Shown: in pieces, positions 1-44,260 of the stretch
How the letters are laid out: the number at the start of each line of letters is the position of its first letter
Position numbering within the stretch: the first letter of the stretch is position 1
Origin: Escherichia coli
GTDB taxonomy: Bacteria; Pseudomonadota; Gammaproteobacteria; Enterobacterales; Enterobacteriaceae
Length of the DNA stretch: 44,355 nucleotides
Assembly: GCF_044324785.1 (NCBI RefSeq)
Contig: NZ_CP172130.1
Direction: 5' to 3' (one strand)
Made by a program: the position numbers and the translations under genes
Notes under the pieces: model-generated
What the model was told of the DNA's origin: nothing
What the model saw: only the letters and a program-made list of their open reading frames with translations
Databases searched by the model: none

Positions 1-855
1 ATGAGGCTTCAGGTGAAAACTGTAACAGGGTTAACGAAAGTCAGGCATAGAAATGAGGTTGGCGTTACTCTGGCATCTCTTTCTCTTTCTGCGAAACGGG
101 TTTTATTTCTCGCACTTTGTCAGATTGATACAAAGGAAATGTTGAATGATGATATTTTGGAGGTTGATGCTGATTTTTTTTCTAAGACAACTACTTTGGA
201 TAAATATGCTGCATATGCGGCCTTAAAAGAAGGTGCAAAAGTTCTGGCTTCAACGACATTAGTTTTAAATAGAGATGATTTAAAAACCCTATCTAATGAA
301 TTGGGAATATCAACATCTAAAAACAAGATACCTGACAGATTGGATTTAAATTTAACCGAATTTTGTGCCTATTATGATCATTTGGCTACTGTTCGTATTA
401 AATTTACTAATACTGCAAAAAGATACTTTTCAAAACTTATTGGCTCTGAAAACAGATATACAACACAGGTGTTAAAATCTGTTGTTATCTTGAACAGTGT
501 AAACTCCACAAACTTATATCAGGTTATCAGAAAATACTATAGTTTAAACCCTGCGAGTAAATCCTTCGAAATTTCAGTTGACCAACTGAAAGAGGAAATG
601 GGGCTTTATAATATTGAAAATGGTGAGAAGGTATACAGATATCCAAAGTACTCTTTTTTTATTCGTGATGTTATAAACAAAAGTATAAGAGAAATCATAG
701 AAAAGACAGAGATAAGGGATATAAAATTTTCAGTGGCAGGAAAAAAAGGACGTATGGTGCATATGCTAAGATTTGATTTTTCTCTCAATGAAGATATTTC
801 TCTTTCTGATGATGAAGCTAAATTCTTGGAAGAGTTTGATAAAAAAGTCCTCTAG
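1..855 (+). CDS. pir: Replication initiator pi protein (Rep_3 family, R6K Pir-like)
   Basis: 284-aa ORF with clear similarity, recalled from memory, to R6K pi protein (MRL.V...RHRNE...LYQLIRKHY...RDV.NK.I.EI..KTEI). Iteron array and inverted-repeat operator lie immediately upstream across the circular junction (44046..44316). Confidence 0.85.
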   Translation: MRLQVKTVTGLTKVRHRNEVGVTLASLSLSAKRVLFLALCQIDTKEMLNDDILEVDADFFSKTTTLDKYAAYAALKEGAKVLASTTLVLNRDDLKTLSNELGISTSKNKIPDRLDLNLTEFCAYYDHLATVRIKFTNTAKRYFSKLIGSENRYTTQVLKSVVILNSVNSTNLYQVIRKYYSLNPASKSFEISVDQLKEEMGLYNIENGEKVYRYPKYSFFIRDVINKSIREIIEKTEIRDIKFSVAGKKGRMVHMLRFDFSLNEDISLSDDEAKFLEEFDKKVL

Positions 856-879: not shown

Positions 880-1326
880 ATGGCTAAAATCTATCAATTC
901 CCTCAGGGGGAAGAACGTGCTAAATTCAGGAAAGAAATAGCCAGGGAGCGTAAGAAACGTTTTGCAGTGAAAACAGGGAGCACTTTTGTTAAGTGGCTTG
1001 GCTGGGGATGGTTTTATCTTCGTCTTCTTGTCGCGAGTGTTTTACATTTTATCTTTGTTTTTGTGTTAGCCATTCTTGGTGCGTTTAAATGGGCTGTATT
1101 CTGGCTGGGTGGTATTTTGTGTGTCATCACCTGGTATCATCTCGATCACCAGTTATGGACTCCACAAAATCTGACTATACCGGTGATTACGGCAACCTGG
1201 ATTTTGGGACTGCTGGCTGAGCCTCTGATGGAGCTGCTCAACAAAACTATGCCCTGGCACAAGTTACTTGTTCCCGAACCTGCGGACGAAAGCACCGAGA
1301 ACAGTAGCGAGATAAGCCAGCAATGA
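880..1326 (+). CDS. Small membrane protein immediately downstream of pir (position of bis in R6K/IncX)
   Basis: 148-aa ORF with a basic N-terminus and two or three hydrophobic helices; GAGG-type RBS region; synteny with pir. Assignment as bis is positional only. Confidence 0.5.
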   Translation: MAKIYQFPQGEERAKFRKEIARERKKRFAVKTGSTFVKWLGWGWFYLRLLVASVLHFIFVFVLAILGAFKWAVFWLGGILCVITWYHLDHQLWTPQNLTIPVITATWILGLLAEPLMELLNKTMPWHKLLVPEPADESTENSSEISQQ

Positions 1327-1354
1327 TGCTACTCAGCGGTTATGCCAGTCCCTG

Positions 1355-1468
1355 CCTTTTCACTGTGATGCAGGATAGGGCAAACGCCGTAAAATGACGT
1401 CATTGACGCCATTTTACGGCGTTTGCCCGGTAACCTACAGTCGGTTCTTATTGGAGAATTTTATGAAA
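1355..1468. promoter_or_regulatory. oriT-like / beta-origin-like element, copy A of a ~110-bp inverted repeat pair; contains a perfect 19-bp palindrome
   Basis: GGGCAAACGCCGTAAAATG...CATTTTACGGCGTTTGCCC palindrome; about 85% identical in inverted orientation to 40331..40443 next to taxA; ends in GGAGAATTTT-ATG. Confidence 0.5.
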
Positions 1469-1819: not shown

Positions 1820-2793
1820 GAATCTCCTATCAGTTTATATTTTCTGCTTGGGTTGCCAAGTGTTATCGAGTCCAGTTCATGTGAGTAATGATGTGTATGA
1901 TAATGTGCTGGATTTTTCAGATAATCAGGGAGTGATATTATTTTTCCGTAGCTAATTGCAGAATAAAACCAGTTGCGGAATGTCTCGCTGTTTGTTTTTA
2001 AAGCATCTTTTGGAATAAATGCTAATTTTATGTTAGAAACGTAATTAACAGGTTTAAGTGTGGTATGTCTGTTTTGTCCAAAGTCTTTTAAAGCATCTGT
2101 AAATTCATATTCTGATGTATAATTTTCTGTCTTATTACTAGGGTGTTTTATCTGGAATATGAATGAATAGTAGTTCTGGCCAAGTATTTCAACGGTGTTT
2201 GAATTTATGCTCAGTTGTTCAATAACCGCTTCTCTTTTATACTCTAATTTGTCTCTGACAGATTGATATACAACCATTGCTGCATGATGTGAACCACCAC
2301 TGTTTAAAGCCACATATCGGTCAATCCAAGAGTAATATTTAACATTAATAGGATCGCGAGGCTTGAAACCTTCATGCTCAATGTGCCATATATTATCCTC
2401 CCAGTCTGAAATATTTTCAGCTTTCAGATTTTCGGCAGGATACATCCCCTCTCCCCACGAATAAAGATCTTTGAACCAACTACCATTTATTACCTTGCTC
2501 CATCCACAACCGAAACTTTTCGAGTCAGTCAGAGATTGTATTTTGTTAAAATCGAAGTCCAGAGAGTGTTTCTTATCTGTAGTTATTAAGTTGCTCAGAA
2601 TTTCAGCCAGATCCCTGTCAATATATCTCAGTGAGTATTCGCTAAATATATTTTCAAGCTGCAATATGGTGTCTGCATCTGCTGTAGGTTTAAATAACTT
2701 AATATCAGCAAGATTTTTAAACGTTGCTGTGGTCAGTTTATGGTGATCTGTCAACCTGTAGAGGTTACAGATCAATTCGGTTAAATATCTCAT
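1816..2793 (-). CDS. Hypothetical protein (325 aa), AT-rich accessory gene, no recognised domain
   Basis: Long uninterrupted ORF convergent with the 118-aa gene; strongly AT-rich codon usage unlike neighbouring backbone genes. Confidence 0.55.
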   Translation of the reverse strand: MRYLTELICNLYRLTDHHKLTTATFKNLADIKLFKPTADADTILQLENIFSEYSLRYIDRDLAEILSNLITTDKKHSLDFDFNKIQSLTDSKSFGCGWSKVINGSWFKDLYSWGEGMYPAENLKAENISDWEDNIWHIEHEGFKPRDPINVKYYSWIDRYVALNSGGSHHAAMVVYQSVRDKLEYKREAVIEQLSINSNTVEILGQNYYSFIFQIKHPSNKTENYTSEYEFTDALKDFGQNRHTTLKPVNYVSNIKLAFIPKDALKTNSETFRNWFYSAISYGKIISLPDYLKNPAHYHTHHYSHELDSITLGNPSRKYKLIGDS

Positions 2794-2817: not shown

Positions 2818-3099
2818 TTAGAATTTTGCAGACTCAAGCAACCAGTGATTCTTTATGTTTTCATCCTGGCTGTTGTACATCGCCAGCGCCGCTTTGAGAA
2901 CGGTTGTTTTGCTCTGCCCTGTTCTGATAGCTTCAGCTTCCAGTATGTCCTCAAAATGGGCAGAAAGTCTGAAGTTCATCAACTTTGGTTTACCCACTAC
3001 AGGCGCTCTGGTAGCGCCGGAGATAAAACGCGCGGTTTCTGCGTTTGTTGCTGGTTGCTGAGATTCATCGATGTTCGGACGGTTTAGTTTCAAAGCCAT
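2818..3099 (-). CDS. Small partition/centromere-binding protein, ribbon-helix-helix type (ParG/ParB-like)
   Basis: 93-aa ORF immediately downstream of the parA-like gene; start chosen at ATG preceded by AAGGGGA; basic N-terminus and short size typical of ParG-like partners. Confidence 0.6.
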   Translation of the reverse strand: MALKLNRPNIDESQQPATNAETARFISGATRAPVVGKPKLMNFRLSAHFEDILEAEAIRTGQSKTTVLKAALAMYNSQDENIKNHWLLESAKF

Positions 3100-3882: not shown

Positions 3883-4110
3883 ATGTAAAGATCATGTAAA
3901 GATCGTCTTGTCTTTACATTGTGTGTTTTCTGTAAAGATGATTTTATCTTTACAGTGTCTTTATATTACATAGGATTTACCATGTAAAGCACAAATAAAG
4001 ACAATCATGTATTTATGTTATCTTTATTTTGTAAAGACTAGCGCATCATTATATTGGCTTTACATAGTAAATCAGTACTTGTCTTTACATCATATTTACG
4101 TTGTAAATTT
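3883..4110. repeat. Array of about 11 TGTAAAG/CTTTACA heptamer repeats in both orientations (candidate centromere/operator, possibly overlapping a res site)
   Basis: Repeated CATGTAAAG, CTTTACA, CTGTAAAG, TTGTAAAG motifs between the par operon and the resolvase gene; a related palindrome CTTTACAATGTAAAG lies at about 3150..3175. Confidence 0.5.
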
Positions 4111-4223
4111 TCATGTGACATTGTCACTTTATGACCAGAGGTCTGTTTTCTGGTTCTTTTAGAGTGTGCCTTTCCTGTCGATCTACTTTCTGGTGCATTT
4201 TGGGTATAGTGGTATAACCTTAT

Positions 4224-25779: not shown

Positions 25780-27617
25780 AGCAAAACCTCAGACTCCAGC
25801 TCCCCTACGGAGAGCATTTTTTCTTTTGACGGATATTTAAGCCCTTTCACACCAAATATTTTTTTCGTCTTATTTAGTTCCATCGTCAATGATGCCAGTT
25901 TAGGACTGACCTTCATTAACCTGTCCATAAAATACGGATCAAGGTAATAAAGTGCCTTTTCTGCTTTAACAGGGTTCTCCCCCTTCAGGATGATAAATTC
26001 TTCTTTAAAGTCCAGCGTTCCCAGCTCCTGTGGAAGCACCAGTGCTCTTCGGGCTTCACTTTCTGATTCGCCCTGTGAAGCTGATCGTCCCCGGCTCTTG
26101 CTTGTGCTCTTTGATGTGGTTGTAATATACCCAAGTTTTTCTGATATCTTCGCGGCATCATCCTCTTCGCTGACAGCATAGATAATACGGCATGGATGAG
26201 CACTCATCAGCGTTTTGGCTCCCTCAATACCATAGATTTCATTTAGCTGACTGATATTCTGATAAATCGTCAGCAGTTTAAGTTTAAAACCTGCAATATA
26301 CCCTGACCCCTTTTTAATAATTGGCATATAACCAATCGAAGGGAACTCATCAAGAAACATCAGGCAGTCATGTTTCAGGGTGGGATCAAAATCAGGATTT
26401 TCACGCAATGTCACTTCAACAACGAAGTTGAAAAACAGGTTCAGAAAATCGTAAGCCAGAGATATATCTTCCGCATTAACACCGACATAAACAGTGATAT
26501 CTTCCCGTCGCAACTGACGGAGATCGAAATCATTACCATCAGTACATTTACGAACGGTTGGGAGATAAAACAGGCTCATTTTCTTACGGAAAGAACCATC
26601 AATGCTTGAACGCTGTTCATCTTCCGTTTCGTGATATTCCCTGATTTTGGTCAGGGCATCGCGCAAATGATACAACGCGTTTTCATCAAGTCCGTTTGTT
26701 CCCTCCAGTTCTTCCCGCTTACTGAGTATCAGTTCCCTGTCAATATTGCTGTACAGGTCGACGACAGAACCGATTGAGAAAACGGGTTTAAGCCCGAACT
26801 CATTAAGCCAGGACGGCTCATAGTTAATAAAGAAATGAAGCAACTTAGCCAGTCCTGTCCAGTACTGACCAGCAAGGTTATTAAAGTGCGCTTCTGCCCC
26901 TGTCATGCCGTAAGACGGAAACAGAATTTCAATCAGTTTAAGCAGATCCTTAGCACCACTCTCTGCTTTTAAATCAATATAGAAAAGGGGGTTAAACTGA
27001 TGTGTCTTACTGTTGAATGGGTCGAGAAGATAAACTTTATTACCCAGCAGTATTTCACGCACCTTACTGGTGATTTTCCACAATTCCTGTTTTGGATCTA
27101 ACGCAATCAGAGAGTGTTTTCTGACCAGAAGATTAGGGATACCAATGGCGGCACCTTTACCGGCGCGGGTTCCTGCACCAAGAGATACAAAATCCGGGGC
27201 GGTATACCACAGATATTTTCCTTTATACGCGCCGACCAGAATATCCGTATCATTTTCTGTCTCCCACTTAAGCAGTTTTGATTTTTTTAAATCATTGTCA
27301 CTGGCAAACTTCGCATCACCATAAAGAGCAACATCCATTTTATTCAGTTGCCAGATAACAAAAACAGGCACAATGAGAGACGAAACCATACCTGACAAAA
27401 GAGAAGGTATGGCAGTCAGTCTGATATCTGTACGTATATTACTCTCTGTTATTATTTTCCAGAGCAACATGGAATCAAAATTTTTCCATATATACAGTGG
27501 TGTTTTTCCGTTCAGGAAATAAACAGAAACAGAACCAGCATAATAGGTCACGAGACACATAACCAGACCGATAAAAACCCACTGGCCTTTATCGGGGAGT
27601 TTTAAAGACATAATCAC
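25776..27617 (-). CDS. taxB: Type IV coupling protein (VirD4/TraG family)
   Basis: 613 aa; N-terminal transmembrane helices; Walker A GAGTRAGKG; position directly after virB11. Confidence 0.85.
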   Translation of the reverse strand: MIMSLKLPDKGQWVFIGLVMCLVTYYAGSVSVYFLNGKTPLYIWKNFDSMLLWKIITESNIRTDIRLTAIPSLLSGMVSSLIVPVFVIWQLNKMDVALYGDAKFASDNDLKKSKLLKWETENDTDILVGAYKGKYLWYTAPDFVSLGAGTRAGKGAAIGIPNLLVRKHSLIALDPKQELWKITSKVREILLGNKVYLLDPFNSKTHQFNPLFYIDLKAESGAKDLLKLIEILFPSYGMTGAEAHFNNLAGQYWTGLAKLLHFFINYEPSWLNEFGLKPVFSIGSVVDLYSNIDRELILSKREELEGTNGLDENALYHLRDALTKIREYHETEDEQRSSIDGSFRKKMSLFYLPTVRKCTDGNDFDLRQLRREDITVYVGVNAEDISLAYDFLNLFFNFVVEVTLRENPDFDPTLKHDCLMFLDEFPSIGYMPIIKKGSGYIAGFKLKLLTIYQNISQLNEIYGIEGAKTLMSAHPCRIIYAVSEEDDAAKISEKLGYITTTSKSTSKSRGRSASQGESESEARRALVLPQELGTLDFKEEFIILKGENPVKAEKALYYLDPYFMDRLMKVSPKLASLTMELNKTKKIFGVKGLKYPSKEKMLSVGELESEVLL

Positions 27618-37819: not shown

Positions 37820-38303
37820 TTTTTAACCTGTCGTATTTTCTGTTACACACATAGTCGGCAAAGACTTGTCCACGCTTTGAAGCGTCTGCAAGGAGAAGTA
37901 TTTTTGCCAGACAGGAGTTATTCATCAGGCTTAAATTCATCGAAAAAATCTTCTCCTGCTCTTTTACTTCATTTATGACACTTAGAGGAACTTCAGCAGG
38001 ATATTCACCAAAACTGACCAGTCCATAAACATTTTTCATCCGGGTAAAGCAGGATGGATGTACAACCTCAAAATCCAGAAGAACGAATACATAACCGGGA
38101 AACATTGGCATGATTTGTCCCCTGTATGCACTACAGTCACGCCTCTTATAGAAAGTGCGTATAACTGGATTGTAGTAAGCGATACCGCTCCGGGATAACT
38201 GCAACAGAACCGACTGATGAAAATGCGGAGAACACTGAAGCAGGTAAAACTGTTTCTGTCCTTTCATACTCAATCCCCGATATACAGATGTGACAAAACA
38301 CAA
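37749..38303 (-). CDS. actX: NusG/RfaH-like transcription antiterminator (ActX-type activator of the pilX operon)
   Basis: Family assignment is mainly positional (first gene of the pilX operon), with weak sequence resemblance to NusG-like proteins; probable true start at the internal ATG (MKGQKQFYLL...). Confidence 0.6.
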   Translation of the reverse strand: MCFVTSVYRGLSMKGQKQFYLLQCSPHFHQSVLLQLSRSGIAYYNPVIRTFYKRRDCSAYRGQIMPMFPGYVFVLLDFEVVHPSCFTRMKNVYGLVSFGEYPAEVPLSVINEVKEQEKIFSMNLSLMNNSCLAKILLLADASKRGQVFADYVCNRKYDRLKNDSYKRKAETATQCTLPSYRSSC

Positions 38304-39792: not shown

Positions 39793-40334
39793 ATCTCCAC
39801 TTTATTTGAAACAGTTCTCCCTTTACATAACATAATGTAATTCTCAAACTGATTCTTAAGATTAAAAATTTCTGTTGTAAGACGCTCCGCATCCTGATAG
39901 AAACCATCTTTATCAAGAACCCTGGTCTGATCATTAACAATGATATAATGGAAATTACGACCGATCTTATCAATTGAATTACGGCAACGATTCATCATCA
40001 GCAGTTCCTGGTCAAAGAAATCCAGTTCATTTTCAAGTGTCGTCTGTATGCGGTAACGACATTCTCGTGATAACGTCCATCCGTGACGATTAGCAGCTCT
40101 TTCAATATCAGCCCTTTGTTTACCTGTTAAGTACATCGTTGTTTTGATAAAATCATTATTATCAAAAAACGTATTTATATCCTTACTGACAGCTTTACTT
40201 TTTAATAAAGCATTTGCTAAAAGTTTCATGCCTTTAGCTACTGTTAAAGCTGGTTCATCCGGATAAAGAGTTTTAAGGCAATCCAGCAAATCATCATGCT
40301 GATTTTCATCAATTCTGAATTGAACTTTTTTCAT
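39789..40334 (-). CDS. taxA: Relaxosome accessory protein
   Basis: 181 aa from the ATG preceded by GGAGAA; the 23-codon extension in the ORF track is the translated inverted repeat. Confidence 0.65.
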   Translation of the reverse strand: MKKVQFRIDENQHDDLLDCLKTLYPDEPALTVAKGMKLLANALLKSKAVSKDINTFFDNNDFIKTTMYLTGKQRADIERAANRHGWTLSRECRYRIQTTLENELDFFDQELLMMNRCRNSIDKIGRNFHYIIVNDQTRVLDKDGFYQDAERLTTEIFNLKNQFENYIMLCKGRTVSNKVEM

Positions 40335-40443
40335 AAAATTCTCCAACAAGAACCGACTGTAGGTCACCGGGCAAATGTTGCGGAATGGCGTCAGAGACGT
40401 CATTTTGCAGTGTTTGCCCTATCCTGCATCGCAGTGAATCTGG
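40331..40443. promoter_or_regulatory. oriT-like / alpha-origin-like element, copy B of the inverted repeat pair
   Basis: About 85% identical (inverted) to 1355..1468, including the GGGCAAAC...GTTTGCCC palindrome and the shared GGAGAATTTTATGAAA translation start. Confidence 0.5.
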
Positions 40444-43294: not shown

Positions 43295-43767
43295 AAGCCC
43301 TCCGCTTGTCTCATTGGCATAATAGCATCTTTAAAAGCACTCTTAAAAGTGCTTATGTTGAGAAAAACATCAGAACAGGTGAGATATGGCTCTTTCCGAC
43401 ATCGCCTTAAAACGCTCTGTAACGCGTTCTGAGCGTTTTTTCCCGTTTCGTTGTAGTCAGCTACGGTTTAACGGTTTTTAACGCCGCTCAACGCTTTTTA
43501 GCGGCCTTGTTGCTGTGATCTGTTGCCATGATCCGGATAGGAGTTCAATCTTGATCAAAATTTCCTCAAGGCAACGACTGTTTTGTAAATACCCTCTAAA
43601 ACGCGCTGTATCGCATTCTGAGCGATTTTTTCGATTTCGCATGTTTTCACCATGGTTGTATCGAACGAAGCGGCAGAAAGCGATTCAGGGCTTCTCAGTG
43701 AAAGATCCAAAAAGGATCAATCAACGGATCGTATGAGCTGAACTCTTCTGGTTTTGAGAAAGGAGAC

Positions 43768-43825
43768 ACCGCTCGCCGCAGCCGAACGACCGAGCGTAGC
43801 GAGTTAGTGAGCGAGGAAGCGGAAT
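43768..43825 (+). other. Segment resembling the ColE1/pMB1 region CCGCTCGCCGCAGCCGAACGACCGAGCGCAGCGAGTCAGTGAGCGAGGAAGCGGAAG (possible single-strand initiation / primosome assembly site)
   Basis: Recognised from memory of pBR322/pUC sequence, with a few mismatches. Confidence 0.4.
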
Positions 43826-43936
43826 AGCACAGGGATTACATTAGGCACTTACGCACAGTGGTTAAAAAATGAGCATATTGTTTTTATGTGTGGTTGTCTT
43901 GGTTCAGAGTGATCTGTCCTCCGGGTTTACGCAAAG

Positions 43937-43945
43937 TTATCCACA
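43937..43945 (+). promoter_or_regulatory. Consensus DnaA box TTATCCACA flanking the iteron origin
   Basis: Perfect 9-mer; a second near-match CATCCACAG lies at 44178..44186 directly after the last iteron. Confidence 0.5.
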
Positions 43946-44045
43946 GGCGCTGTGCATTTAAAAAACTTATCTTTTCTTCTTGATCTTAAAAACTTAAAAA
44001 CTTAGAGCGTCGTAACATTATGATAAATATAATAAAAAAACGCTA

Positions 44046-44177
44046 AACATGAGAGGATTTTTAACGTAAGGTGAGAGGATCTTTAACATAAGGTGAGAAG
44101 ATTTTTAAGTAAGGGTGAGAAGATTTTTCACTAAAGATGAGAGGATTTTTAACGAAAGGTGAGAGGATTTTTAAGTA
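44046..44177 (+). repeat. Six tandem 22-bp iterons of a gamma-type (pi-dependent) replication origin
   Basis: AACATGAGAGGATTTTTAACGT / AAGGTGAGAGGATCTTTAACAT / AAGGTGAGAAGATTTTTAAGTA / AGGGTGAGAAGATTTTTCACTA / AAGATGAGAGGATTTTTAACGA / AAGGTGAGAGGATTTTTAAGTA; AT-rich flanks. Confidence 0.85.
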
Positions 44178-44260
44178 CATCCACAGGCTAAAAAAATATC
44201 ATGTAAAACATGATGTTATGAATTCATTTTGATGTGAATACATAAAGATCTTTATATCTA

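What the first reader, a model, noticed from the sequence alone, without database searches (positions are those of the whole stretch)
43768..43825. ColE1/pMB1-like sequence block near the iteron origin
A roughly 58-bp stretch closely resembles a segment I recall from pBR322/pUC (CCGCTCGCCGCAGCCGAACGACCGAGCGCAGCGAGTCAGTGAGCGAGGAAGCGGAAG), which lies near the primosome assembly region of ColE1-type plasmids. Its presence on an R6K-like replicon suggests a conserved priming signal or an old recombination event.
Basis: partly seen in the sequence, partly recalled or inferred. Interest (0 to 1): 0.35.

Follow-up and report, generated by a model that had tools for sequence, protein, structure and literature searches.

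The report
ColE1-type primosome site on IncX plasmid
The flagged 58 bp is a real copy of the hairpin signal that ColE1/pBR322 plasmids use to load the host priming machinery on single-stranded DNA; it is a portable module found beside many unrelated plasmid origins, so this is a solid but fairly ordinary new member of a known kind.

Summary
Window 43769-43825 matches the recalled pBR322/pUC string at 54 of 57 bases and authentic ColE1 at 58 of 61. In ColE1-type plasmids the block lies about 110-190 bp past the RNAII-to-DNA switch, on the RNAII-sense strand. That is the published position of ssiA, the PriA-dependent primosome assembly site.

The window is an IncX1 conjugative plasmid with a Pir/Rep3 initiator, iterons and a DnaA box, and no RNAI. 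The block sits about 110 bp left of the DnaA box. It is present upstream of pir in IncX1, X3, X4, X5 and a Serratia relative, but R6K itself (IncX2) lacks it.

Two arms, CCGCTCGCCGCAG and CGAGGAAGCGGAA, are near-invariant, and the interior is replaced by different self-complementary sequences. Two helices show compensatory changes, including three diverged copies beside F's RepFIA and RepFIB replicons. A second motif, [TG]ACGC, lies 25-28 nt downstream.

The block accompanies at least five unrelated initiator types and almost always shares the initiator gene's strand.

The best reading is a portable PriA-type priming hairpin acting on the + strand. Its function here is inferred, not shown. It is a new member of a known kind, of modest interest.

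The parts
43769..43824 (+). Core block: ColE1 ssiA-type primosome-assembly-site homologue (5' arm, 30-nt interior, 3' arm). The + strand carries the AAGCGG sense and is the predicted active strand.
   Evidence: 54 of 57 to the pBR322/pUC string; 58 of 61 to ColE1 1308-1368, same sense as RNAII; found in IncX1/X3/X4/X5.
43769..43781 (+). 5' arm CCGCTCGCCGCAG. Bases 43769-43773 (CCGCT) form the 5' side of the basal helix and 43781 (G) closes the upper helix.
   Evidence: Invariant in all ColE1-type and IncX versions. In F copies the first two bases change together with their partners.
43782..43811 (+). Variable 30-nt interior. Bases 43783-43787 pair with 43807-43811 (upper helix). In this plasmid that is C-G, a tandem G.A/A.G mismatch, A-T and C-G.
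   Evidence: 36 distinct interiors found. Matched ends give a mean helix of 3.81 bp against 2.11 +/- 0.24 for permuted partners, 0 of 5000. Five of six pairs in helix 2 change on both sides.
43812..43824 (+). 3' arm CGAGGAAGCGGAA. Bases 43818-43822 (AGCGG) form the 3' side of the basal helix. It contains the AAGCGG hexamer.
   Evidence: Invariant in ColE1-type and IncX versions. F ori2 has AGCAC, which pairs with GTGCT.
43845..43856 (+). Downstream conserved motif GCACTTACGCAC, with the [TG]ACGC core 25-28 nt after GCGGAA. Role unknown; likely part of the functional site.
   Evidence: 13 of 23 representatives with unrelated spacers carry [TG]ACGC at +25..+28. Control windows give 0-1; shuffles give mean 0.44, maximum 4. 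Also present in the three F copies.
43752..43768 (+). Upstream flank TTTTGAGAAAGGAGACA, shared with some ColE1-type plasmids (L002) and all IncX1/X4 versions.
43596..43768 (+). Context: IncX1/IncX4-specific left module (hairpin + T-run, a second AAGCGG at 43666-43671, a GATC cluster) that ends with the block.
   Evidence: 89.7% identity between IncX1 and IncX4 over 43596-43825, stopping at the block's right edge. Present in 1431 PLSDB records. Absent from IncX3/X5, which still have the block.
43937..44185 (+). Context: gamma-type origin. DnaA box TTATCCACA (43937-43945), an A+T-rich stretch, six ~22-bp iterons (~44046-44176) and a DnaA-box-like ACATCCACA (44177-44185). pir follows at 1-855 after the circular wrap.
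   Evidence: Sequence read; internal repeat hits; pir ORF; Rep3_N/Rep3_C.
40412..40435 (+). Context for strand logic: oriT nick island GTTTGCCCTATCCTGCATCGCAGT on the + strand. An inverted second copy lies at 1362-1385 (-).
   Evidence: Identical island in R6K. Second copy with 1 mismatch. 110-nt inverted repeat 1359-1468 / 40329-40438.

Best explanation
The block is a homologue of the ColE1/pBR322 ssiA element, a phiX174-type (n', PriA-dependent) primosome assembly site carried as a portable cassette next to the Pir/iteron origin of this IncX1 plasmid.

Proposed mechanism (inferred):
1. The + strand becomes single-stranded, for example when origin opening and helicase action spread leftward from the A+T-rich region.
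2. The + strand folds into an imperfect hairpin. It has a 5-bp basal helix (43769-73 with 43818-22), an internal loop that presents the invariant arm bases including AAGCGG, and an upper helix (43781/83-87 with 43807-12).
3. PriA recognises this structure on SSB-coated DNA and, with PriB, DnaT and DnaC, loads DnaB.
4. DnaB moves 5'->3' on the + strand, towards the iterons and pir, and DnaG lays primers that are extended leftward.
5. At a Rep3 origin this would supply the second helicase and the first primer of the opposite fork. That role is comparable to the ssi signals near other plasmid origins.

The site is an accessory that improves strand-initiation efficiency and is not an essential origin component. 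It could also prime complementary-strand synthesis in recipients when transfer starts from the oriT at 40.4 kb.

Shown here: homology, position in ColE1-type plasmids, conservation pattern, covarying helices, distribution and orientation rule. Inferred: PriA dependence and the role in this plasmid.
For: Homology and position:
- 54 of 57 to the pBR322 string and 58 of 61 to ColE1.
- In ColE1, L002 and L003 the block is on the RNAII-sense strand, 600-680 nt from the RNAII start implied by RNAI. That is about 110-190 nt past the switch, using the +555 switch position from my own knowledge.
- PMC3167613 places ssiA, the lagging-strand primosome assembly site, within the 419 nt downstream of the switch of pMB1 origins and describes PriA recruitment there. 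PMC8246471 states that PAS sites occur near the pBR322 origin and that PriA binds a hairpin.

Conservation pattern of a structured single-strand signal:
- Arms are invariant and the interior is swapped.
- 85.9% of cells are paired against 77.2% in shuffles and 24-39% when partners are slid. Seven of 11 pairs change on both sides, and the covariation score is 0.288 against 0.141, 0 of 500.
- Permuted-partner test: 0 of 5000.
- IncX5 and Serratia versions fold with z = -3.07 and -1.99.

Portability:
- The block lies beside RNAI/RNAII origins, Rep3/Pir, RepL-like, PF03090 + PriCT_1 and pAB02-ORF2-like initiators.
- Three diverged copies flank F's RepFIA and RepFIB replicons.
- In Rep-encoding plasmids it shares the rep strand and lies upstream in 9 IncX loci, L029, L114, L090, L025, L066 and L100, and for 2 of the 3 F copies.

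Other support:
- PMC6854812 reports that deleting the 'ssi' of the pHW126-family plasmid pIGRK is tolerated but raises copy number and multimerisation. L090 and L025 have a similar small Rep next to the block, but I did not confirm they belong to that family.
- No ORF, sigma-70 promoter match or RNA family explains the block.
Against: - The window's own version does not fold better than shuffled sequence (z = +0.31 and -0.11). Its upper helix contains a tandem G.A mismatch.
- R6K, the prototype Pir replicon, lacks the block entirely, so it is dispensable for Pir replication and IncX transfer.
- I could not open the primary papers that define the factor Y/ssiA boundaries. The equation 'block = experimentally defined ssiA' therefore rests on position, secondary literature and my memory.
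- The geometry differs from ColE1. If forks leave the gamma-type origin leftward, which GC skew is compatible with, the + strand here is the leading-strand template and not the displaced lagging-strand template.
- The covariation structure was derived from the same sequences it was tested on, which inflates the slid-partner contrast.
Confidence: 0.65

Rival explanations
1. The block's main role in IncX plasmids is in conjugation. It would be a complementary-strand initiation site on the transferred strand, used in the recipient cell, and not a component of vegetative replication.
For: The oriT nick island with the MOBP-type core YATCCTG|Y (the consensus is from my own knowledge) is on the + strand at 40412-40435. 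It is identical in R6K and preceded by an inverted repeat. Transfer from it would send the + strand 5'->3' rightward, exposing the block in its AAGCGG sense 3.34 kb after the nick. ssi sequences are discussed as recipient-strand initiation signals in conjugative plasmids (PMC7690428).
Against: A second, inverted oriT copy lies at 1359-1468. Transfer from it would send the opposite strand, so only one of the two oriTs fits. In F, block orientation follows the adjacent rep gene (one copy on each strand next to repE and RepFIB rep) and not a single transferred strand. The block also occurs in ColE1 on the strand I infer is not transferred. R6K conjugates without it.
Confidence: 0.15
2. The block is a neutral scar of past recombination with a ColE1-type plasmid and has no function in IncX plasmids.
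For: ColE1-type plasmids are mobilised by IncX plasmids and co-reside with them (PMC4222815). R6K lacks the block. Homology between IncX1 and IncX4 ends exactly at the block's right edge, like a recombination joint.
Against: The block is kept at the same place and orientation in IncX1, X3, X4, X5 and a Serratia relative whose Pir proteins are only 38-46% identical, while the flanks are unalignable. The arms stay invariant while interiors are replaced by other hairpin-forming sequences with compensatory changes. In L007 about 385 bp are inserted next to it, yet the block is retained at 91.5%.
Confidence: 0.08
3. The block acts as a double-stranded or RNA-level signal, for example an intrinsic terminator for leftward transcription out of the origin, or a binding site for a duplex-DNA-binding protein.
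For: The terminator scan flags a hairpin on the - strand (43790-43768, 8 pairs) followed by a T-containing tail.
Against: Two terminator-like hits in the region are within about 1.3 sd of the shuffle expectation (0.8 +/- 0.9). The flagged hairpin covers only the 5' arm and part of the interior, and does not explain the invariant 3' arm or the downstream motif. The T-rich tail is not conserved in ColE1-type flanks. No sigma-70 promoter-like site or Rfam family overlaps it.
Confidence: 0.04

Closest known systems
ColE1 / pBR322 ssiA (rriA; L-strand factor Y / n' primosome assembly site)
   Same: Direct sequence homologue: 58 of 61 to ColE1 and 54 of 57 to the pBR322 type. It has the same arms, the same interior class and the same downstream TTACGC motif. 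The predicted active strand is the one carrying AAGCGG.
   Different: In ColE1 it lies 110-190 bp downstream of an RNAII-primed, Pol I-dependent origin, on the displaced lagging-strand template. Here there is no RNAI/RNAII. The block lies on the A+T-rich side of a Pir/iteron origin, where the + strand is more likely the leading-strand template of a leftward fork (weak evidence).
Block copies beside F plasmid ori2 (RepFIA) and RepFIB. From memory, a PriA-type site at mini-F ori2 was reported by Imber, Low and Ray in 1983 and F ssi signals by Nomura et al. in 1991; I could not verify this here.
   Same: Same layout next to a Rep3/iteron origin, with a block about 360-450 nt upstream of rep on the rep strand. 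F 48029-48085 (+) is upstream of repE and F 38074-38129 (-) is upstream of the RepFIB rep gene. Both have a 30-nt interior and a downstream TTAC(A/G)C.
   Different: The F copies are diverged. The basal-stem bases are changed in a compensatory way (GTGCT/AGCAC), and the interior has a GGGC-GAA-GCCC hairpin like IncX3. I could not confirm that these exact sequences are the published F sites.
'ssi' of small ColE1-like, ColE2-like and pHW126/pIGRK-family plasmids
   Same: The literature treats ssi as a homologous element shared among these plasmids (PMC2831885; PMC5935869). The block occurs beside RepL-like small Reps (L090, L025) and a PF03090 + PriCT_1 Rep (L046). Deleting the pIGRK ssi is tolerated but destabilises the plasmid, which fits an accessory role.
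   Different: Those are small, mostly mobilisable plasmids, whereas this is a 44-kb self-transmissible IncX1 plasmid. I could not fetch pIGRK (AY543071) or pCS36-4CPA (KM373703) to prove that their annotated ssi is this block.
phiX174 n'-pas and G4-type primase-only ssi (the G-site of R1/R100)
   Same: The proposed job is the same: a hairpin on single-stranded DNA that starts priming without the origin initiator. The G-site precedent (from my own knowledge) shows an ssi placed beside a Rep-dependent origin on the leading-strand template.
   Different: No sequence homology was tested or expected. G4-type sites use primase alone and a three-hairpin structure, and phiX174 pas shares at most the short AAGCGG-like consensus (from my own knowledge).

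Membership tests
phiX174-type (n'/PriA-dependent) primosome assembly site, ssiA class | Sequence homology to an experimentally defined member (ColE1 ssiA / pBR322 L-strand site) | tested here: met
   58 of 61 to ColE1 1308-1368 and 54 of 57 to the pBR322-type string. Caveat: the boundaries of the experimentally defined site come from secondary sources and memory, because the primary papers are not held.
phiX174-type (n'/PriA-dependent) primosome assembly site, ssiA class | In ColE1-type plasmids, located a short distance downstream of the RNA/DNA switch on the displaced (RNAII-sense) strand | tested here: met
   ColE1: RNAI 645-749 (-), block 1308-1368 (+). L002: RNAI 2331-2431 (-), block 3001-3077 (+). 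L003: RNAI 2398-2499 (-), block 3001-3059 (+). Five further variant loci have RNAI, of which L035 and L056 are full-length contigs whose coordinates show this arrangement directly; L036, L047 and L057 are short contigs, probably circular, where the two features lie at opposite ends.
phiX174-type (n'/PriA-dependent) primosome assembly site, ssiA class | Hairpin secondary structure of the active single strand | tested here: met
   Two helices are supported by covariation: 85.9% paired, 7 pairs changed on both sides, score 0.288 against 0.141, 0 of 500. The permutation test gives 0 of 5000. The window's own copy is thermodynamically unremarkable.
phiX174-type (n'/PriA-dependent) primosome assembly site, ssiA class | AAGCGG hexamer on the active strand (consensus recalled from the 1980s literature) | tested here: met
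   AAGCGG at 43817-43822 (+), invariant in all ColE1-type and IncX versions. It is altered in the F copies, where the change preserves base pairing. That this hexamer is defining is my own recollection.
phiX174-type (n'/PriA-dependent) primosome assembly site, ssiA class | Strand-specific, rifampicin-resistant ss-to-ds conversion that depends on PriA, PriB, DnaT, DnaB/C and DnaG; stimulation of PriA ATPase on SSB-coated DNA | not testable with these tools
   Requires the M13 ssi assay and biochemistry.
ColE1-type replicon (origin) | RNAII primer and antisense RNAI | tested here: not met
   No RNAI (RF00106) anywhere in the window at the gathering threshold, while it is found in L002, L003 and L009. 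The window borrows only the ssi module, not the ColE1 origin.
R6K-type (Pir/iteron, IncX) origin | Rep3-family Pir initiator, tandem ~22-bp iterons, DnaA box and A+T-rich region | tested here: met
   Pir ORF 1-855 with Rep3_N/Rep3_C. Iterons and TTATCCACA read. Typed IncX1.
R6K-type (Pir/iteron, IncX) origin | The block is a constituent of the family's origin | tested here: not met
   R6K (NZ_LT827129.1, IncX2) has neither arm and no BLAST match. A distant Pir replicon (L015) also lacks it. It is present in X1, X3, X4 and X5.
Frpo-type single-stranded-DNA promoter (F leading-region ssi) | -35 and -10 hexamers formed within the hairpin | tested here: not met
   No sigma-70-like hexamer pair overlaps 43752-43860 on either strand. 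That scan works on linear sequence, so a promoter formed only by folding was not modelled.
G4-type primase-dependent ssi (G-site) | Three-hairpin structure recognised by DnaG alone | not tested
   No reference sequence was compared. The strong homology to the ColE1 ssiA class makes this unlikely.

The most novel reading that the evidence does not exclude
The block is the core of a roughly 90-nt bipartite priming cassette. It has a basal helix, a sequence-free upper helix, invariant loop bases, and a fixed-distance [TG]ACGC motif that has not, to my knowledge, been described. The cassette has been exchanged among at least five unrelated plasmid replication systems and is kept co-oriented with the initiator gene. 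This would imply a general, under-appreciated PriA-dependent step in establishing forks at Rep3/iteron origins. In IncX plasmids, where it lies between two inverted oriTs, the cassette would also serve recipient-strand conversion.
Probability: 0.25. Interest if true: 0.5.

Novelty: new member of a known kind. Interest (0 to 1): 0.3.

Why it matters
IncX plasmids are major carriers of mcr-1, blaNDM and qnrS. Their origin regions are usually annotated only by analogy with R6K, which turns out to lack this element. Recognising a PriA-type priming cassette next to the gamma-type origin of IncX1, X3, X4 and X5 gives a testable accessory determinant of copy number, stability or establishment after transfer. 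It also gives a shared 56-77 bp identity patch through which IncX and small ColE1-type plasmids could recombine. More generally, the comparative data refine the anatomy of a classic signal that was defined on very few sequences: invariant arms, two covarying helices, a fixed-distance downstream motif, and co-orientation with rep genes. The block is also a practical marker of pUC/pBR322 contamination in draft genomes.

Tried and rejected
- **Thermodynamic test of the window's own block and its flanks.** It is no better than shuffles (z = +0.31/+0.26 for 89 nt on both strands and -0.11 for 61 nt). Stability alone does not identify the structure; covariation was needed.\n- **An outer helix between the upstream flank (TTTGAGNGAG) and the downstream TTACGC motif.** Suggested by ColE1, L046 and L106, but matched and permuted partners are indistinguishable (6.07 against 6.02 +/- 0.18; 404 of 1000). 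Rejected as a general feature.\n- **A clean 'the block is on the transferred strand' argument.** Weakened once the second, inverted oriT copy was found and F's copies were seen on both strands.\n- **GC skew as an indicator of fork direction.** The cumulative minimum is at the origin, but gene orientation confounds it. Used only as weak evidence.\n- **Primary literature on the factor Y/ssi sites.** Zipursky and Marians 1980/81, Nomura 1982, and van der Ende 1983 are not held; Nomura 1991 was seen only as a cited reference and not requested. Two reviews guessed by PMC id are also absent, and Allen 2011 has no supplements held.\n- **Accession look-ups.** pIGRK (AY543071) and pCS36-4CPA (KM373703) are not in the collections, so their published ssi annotations could not be tied to the block by sequence.\n- **Literature searches for prior reports.** IncX + primosome returned 0 papers, and IncX/pOLA52 + ssi returned nothing relevant.\n- **A 'consecutive run' helix metric.** It undercounted the ColE1/IncX1 interior (1 bp). 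The per-pair count shows 4 Watson-Crick pairs around a tandem G.A.

Full report
**Observation.** None of 100 dinucleotide-preserving shuffles gives a match. The recalled string is genuine. The genome-collection scan returned 22 loci carrying exactly that interior, several with the pUC lac junction or the pBR322 flank immediately downstream. These are vector contamination in draft assemblies. Authentic ColE1 (NC_001371.1) matches window 43768-43828 at 58 of 61 bases. A 111-nt query centred on the block hits more than 5000 plasmid records, ranging from 2-kb cryptic plasmids to large conjugative ones.

**What the window is.** The last 3.3 kb of the window is identical to many IncX1 plasmids. NZ_CP104480.1 (44,362 bp) is essentially the same molecule and is typed IncX1, MOBP, MPF_T. 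The window starts with a 284-aa Rep3-family initiator, Pir. Reading leftward across the circular junction gives six ~22-bp iterons (~44046-44176), an A+T-rich stretch, a consensus DnaA box TTATCCACA (43937-43945) and then the block, about 110 bp further left. Beyond it lie a GATC-rich stretch, two copies of a hairpin + T-run element and a RelE/ParE toxin-antitoxin pair. The window contains no RNAI, so only the block is ColE1-like and the origin is not. No ORF of note, sigma-70 promoter match or Rfam family covers the block.

**What the block is in ColE1-type plasmids.** In ColE1, in a Rop-encoding relative (L002) and in pMG828-5 (L003), Rfam places RNAI on the strand opposite the block, 600-680 nt upstream. 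RNAI is antisense to the 5' end of RNAII, and the RNA/DNA switch lies about 555 nt into RNAII (my own knowledge). The block therefore lies roughly 110-190 nt downstream of the switch on the RNAII-sense strand, which is the displaced strand. That is where the literature puts ssiA, the n' primosome assembly site. Pol I extension exposes it, PriA is recruited, and DnaB and DnaG then start lagging-strand synthesis. ssiA lies within the 419 nt downstream of the switch of pMB1 origins (PMC3167613). PMC8246471 adds that PAS hairpins occur near the pBR322 origin and can act as origins. I could not open the primary footprinting papers. The identification therefore rests on position, secondary sources and memory.

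**Distribution in the Pir/IncX family.** I sampled the family with the Pir protein and fetched one origin region per lineage. The block is present upstream of pir, in the same orientation, in these groups:
- IncX1 (window, L005, L008, L014)
- IncX3 (L010)
- IncX4 (L004, L007)
- IncX5 (L011)
- a Serratia relative (L013)
- an IncX-like replicon inside an IncF cointegrate (L012)

These Pir proteins are as little as 38-46% identical, and the flanking DNA is mostly unalignable. IncX1 and IncX4 share a larger ~230-bp module whose homology ends exactly at the block's right edge. In L007 about 385 bp separate that module from the block, yet the block is retained. R6K itself (NZ_LT827129.1, IncX2) has no trace of it, and neither does a distant Pir replicon from Providencia. 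The element is therefore widespread in the family but dispensable.

**Anatomy from comparison.** The arms CCGCTCGCCGCAG and CGAGGAAGCGGAA are invariant from ColE1 to IncX5, while the interior is replaced. Examples are IncX5 CTTTGGCTG...CAGCCAAAG, Serratia TTTTGAC...GTCAAAA and IncX3 GGGC-GAA-GCCC. Scanning a species-level genome collection for the two arms separated by 20-50 nt gave 107 stretches and 36 distinct interiors.
- The interior ends are complementary far more often than chance. Across 21 stem-end types the mean helix is 3.81 bp, against 2.11 +/- 0.24 with permuted partners (0 of 5000).
- F plasmid carries three diverged copies, and these supply variation in the otherwise invariant basal stem. 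CCGCT/AGCGG becomes GTGCT/AGCAC at ori2 and GTGCT/AGCGC at RepFIB.
- On a gap-free 18-sequence alignment, a two-helix model gives 85.9% paired cells, against 77.2% in shuffles and 24-39% with slid partners. Seven of 11 pairs change on both sides, and the covariation score is 0.288 against 0.141 (0 of 500).
- The window's own copy keeps the upper helix as G-C, C-G, a tandem G.A/A.G, A-T and C-G. Its predicted stability is unremarkable, whereas the IncX5 and Serratia versions are clearly stable (z = -3.07 and -1.99).
- A second conserved feature is a [TG]ACGC motif 25-28 nt after GCGGAA. It occurs in 13 of 23 representatives with unrelated spacers (controls 0-1; shuffles mean 0.44, maximum 4). 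In the window it is GCACTTACGCAC at 43845-43856. It does not form a general outer helix with the upstream flank.

**A portable module.** Besides RNAI/RNAII plasmids and Pir, the block lies next to other Rep3 initiators (L029, L114), small RepL-like winged-helix Reps (L090, L025), a PF03090 Replicase + PriCT_1 protein that I recall as ColE2-type (L046), and pAB02-ORF2-like HTH Reps (L066, L100). In Rep-encoding plasmids it lies upstream of rep on the rep strand, including two of F's three copies (F 48029-48085 + with repE; F 38074-38129 - with the RepFIB rep gene). Published surveys already treat ssi as a shared element of small ColE1-like and other plasmids (PMC2831885; PMC5935869). In pIGRK, deleting the ssi is tolerated but raises copy number and multimerisation (PMC6854812). 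I found no report of the element in IncX plasmids.

**How it probably works here.** The AAGCGG sense is on the + strand. A primosome assembled there would send DnaB 5'->3' towards the iterons and pir, and would lay primers that extend leftward. In ColE1 this strand is the lagging-strand template of the only fork. At a Rep3 origin that opens in the A+T-rich region, the same geometry would supply the helicase of the rightward fork and the first primer of the leftward one. GC skew is compatible with a leftward fork through the block but is confounded by gene orientation.

A conjugative role is also possible. The oriT nick island (YATCCTG|Y core) is on the + strand at 40412-40435 and is identical in R6K. 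Transfer from it would expose the block in the active sense 3.34 kb after the nick. However, a second, inverted oriT copy at 1359-1468 would send the other strand, and F's copies follow their rep genes and not one transferred strand. I therefore favour a vegetative accessory role (confidence 0.65), with recipient-strand priming as a secondary or alternative role (0.15). A neutral recombination scar (0.08) and a duplex or terminator function (0.04) are poorly supported.

**Verdict.** It is a new member of a known kind. The comparative anatomy and orientation rule add some value, but a plasmid specialist would not be greatly surprised. Interest is 0.3.

Noticed in passing
window 1359-1468 and 40329-40438: A 110-nt inverted repeat (87% complementary), each arm carrying the oriT nick island GTTTGCCCTATCCTGCATC(G/A)CAGT. 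The two inverted oriT copies bracket the ~5.3-kb replication/leading region (small ORFs, TA pair, origin, pir, bis-like ORF), as reported for R6K and IncX1.
   Followed up: partly
window ~43405-43450 and ~43594-43640: Two direct copies (~84% identity over 43 nt) of an A-run + hairpin (AAAACGCTC...GAGCGTTTT) + T-run element. The second copy opens the module shared by IncX1 and IncX4 and is flagged as terminator-like. Its role is unknown (insulating terminators, or another kind of strand-initiation signal).
   Followed up: partly
window 43517-43556 and 43704-43730; 43666-43671: Two clusters of three GATC sites each lie between the toxin-antitoxin pair and the block, and a second AAGCGG (in CGAACGAAGCGGCAG) lies on the + strand and is conserved in IncX4. 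This suggests further origin-associated signals (Dam/SeqA sites, or a degenerate second PriA site).
   Followed up: no
L124/L125 (F plasmid NC_002483.1) 48029-48085 (+), 38074-38129 (-), ~49583-49617 (-): F carries three diverged copies of the block: upstream of repE (ori2), upstream of the RepFIB rep gene, and just downstream of repE on the opposite strand. All have the downstream TTAC(A/G)C motif, and the basal stem shows compensatory changes.
   Followed up: yes
L123 (R6K, NZ_LT827129.1) 26086-26099 versus window 43687-43700: R6K shares only a 14-nt GGGCTTCTCAGTG patch with the IncX1 origin-flanking module and then runs straight into its DnaA box. Relative to IncX1 it lacks the GATC cluster, the block and the downstream motif.
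   Followed up: partly
L016-L095 (genome-contig hits), e.g. L017, L018, L020, L024, L028, L045, L048: Many hits are tiny contigs in assemblies of Streptomyces, Cutibacterium, Myxococcus, Paracoccus, MAGs and others. They carry the exact pUC/pBR322 interior, and some carry the lac junction. These are cloning-vector or small-plasmid contamination in public genomes.
   Followed up: partly
L007 (IncX4-typed pMS1718-2) 1618-2003: About 385 bp of unrelated DNA separate the IncX left module from the block, against 54 bp in the window. This looks like an insertion or replacement immediately upstream of the block that leaves the block intact.
   Followed up: no
L090 (4203-bp MAG contig) 681-753 and 4093-4165: Two block copies lie 3412 bp apart on one contig, which suggests an over-assembled circular 3.4-kb mobilisable plasmid. 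It has a RepL-like Rep, a ColE1-type relaxase and a 47-nt-interior version of the block.
   Followed up: no
window 14219-14294 (-) and 18107-18194 (+): Rfam hits in the cargo region: AAC_AAD_leader/attI (class 1 integron attI region) and an AgrB-type antisense RNA.
   Followed up: no
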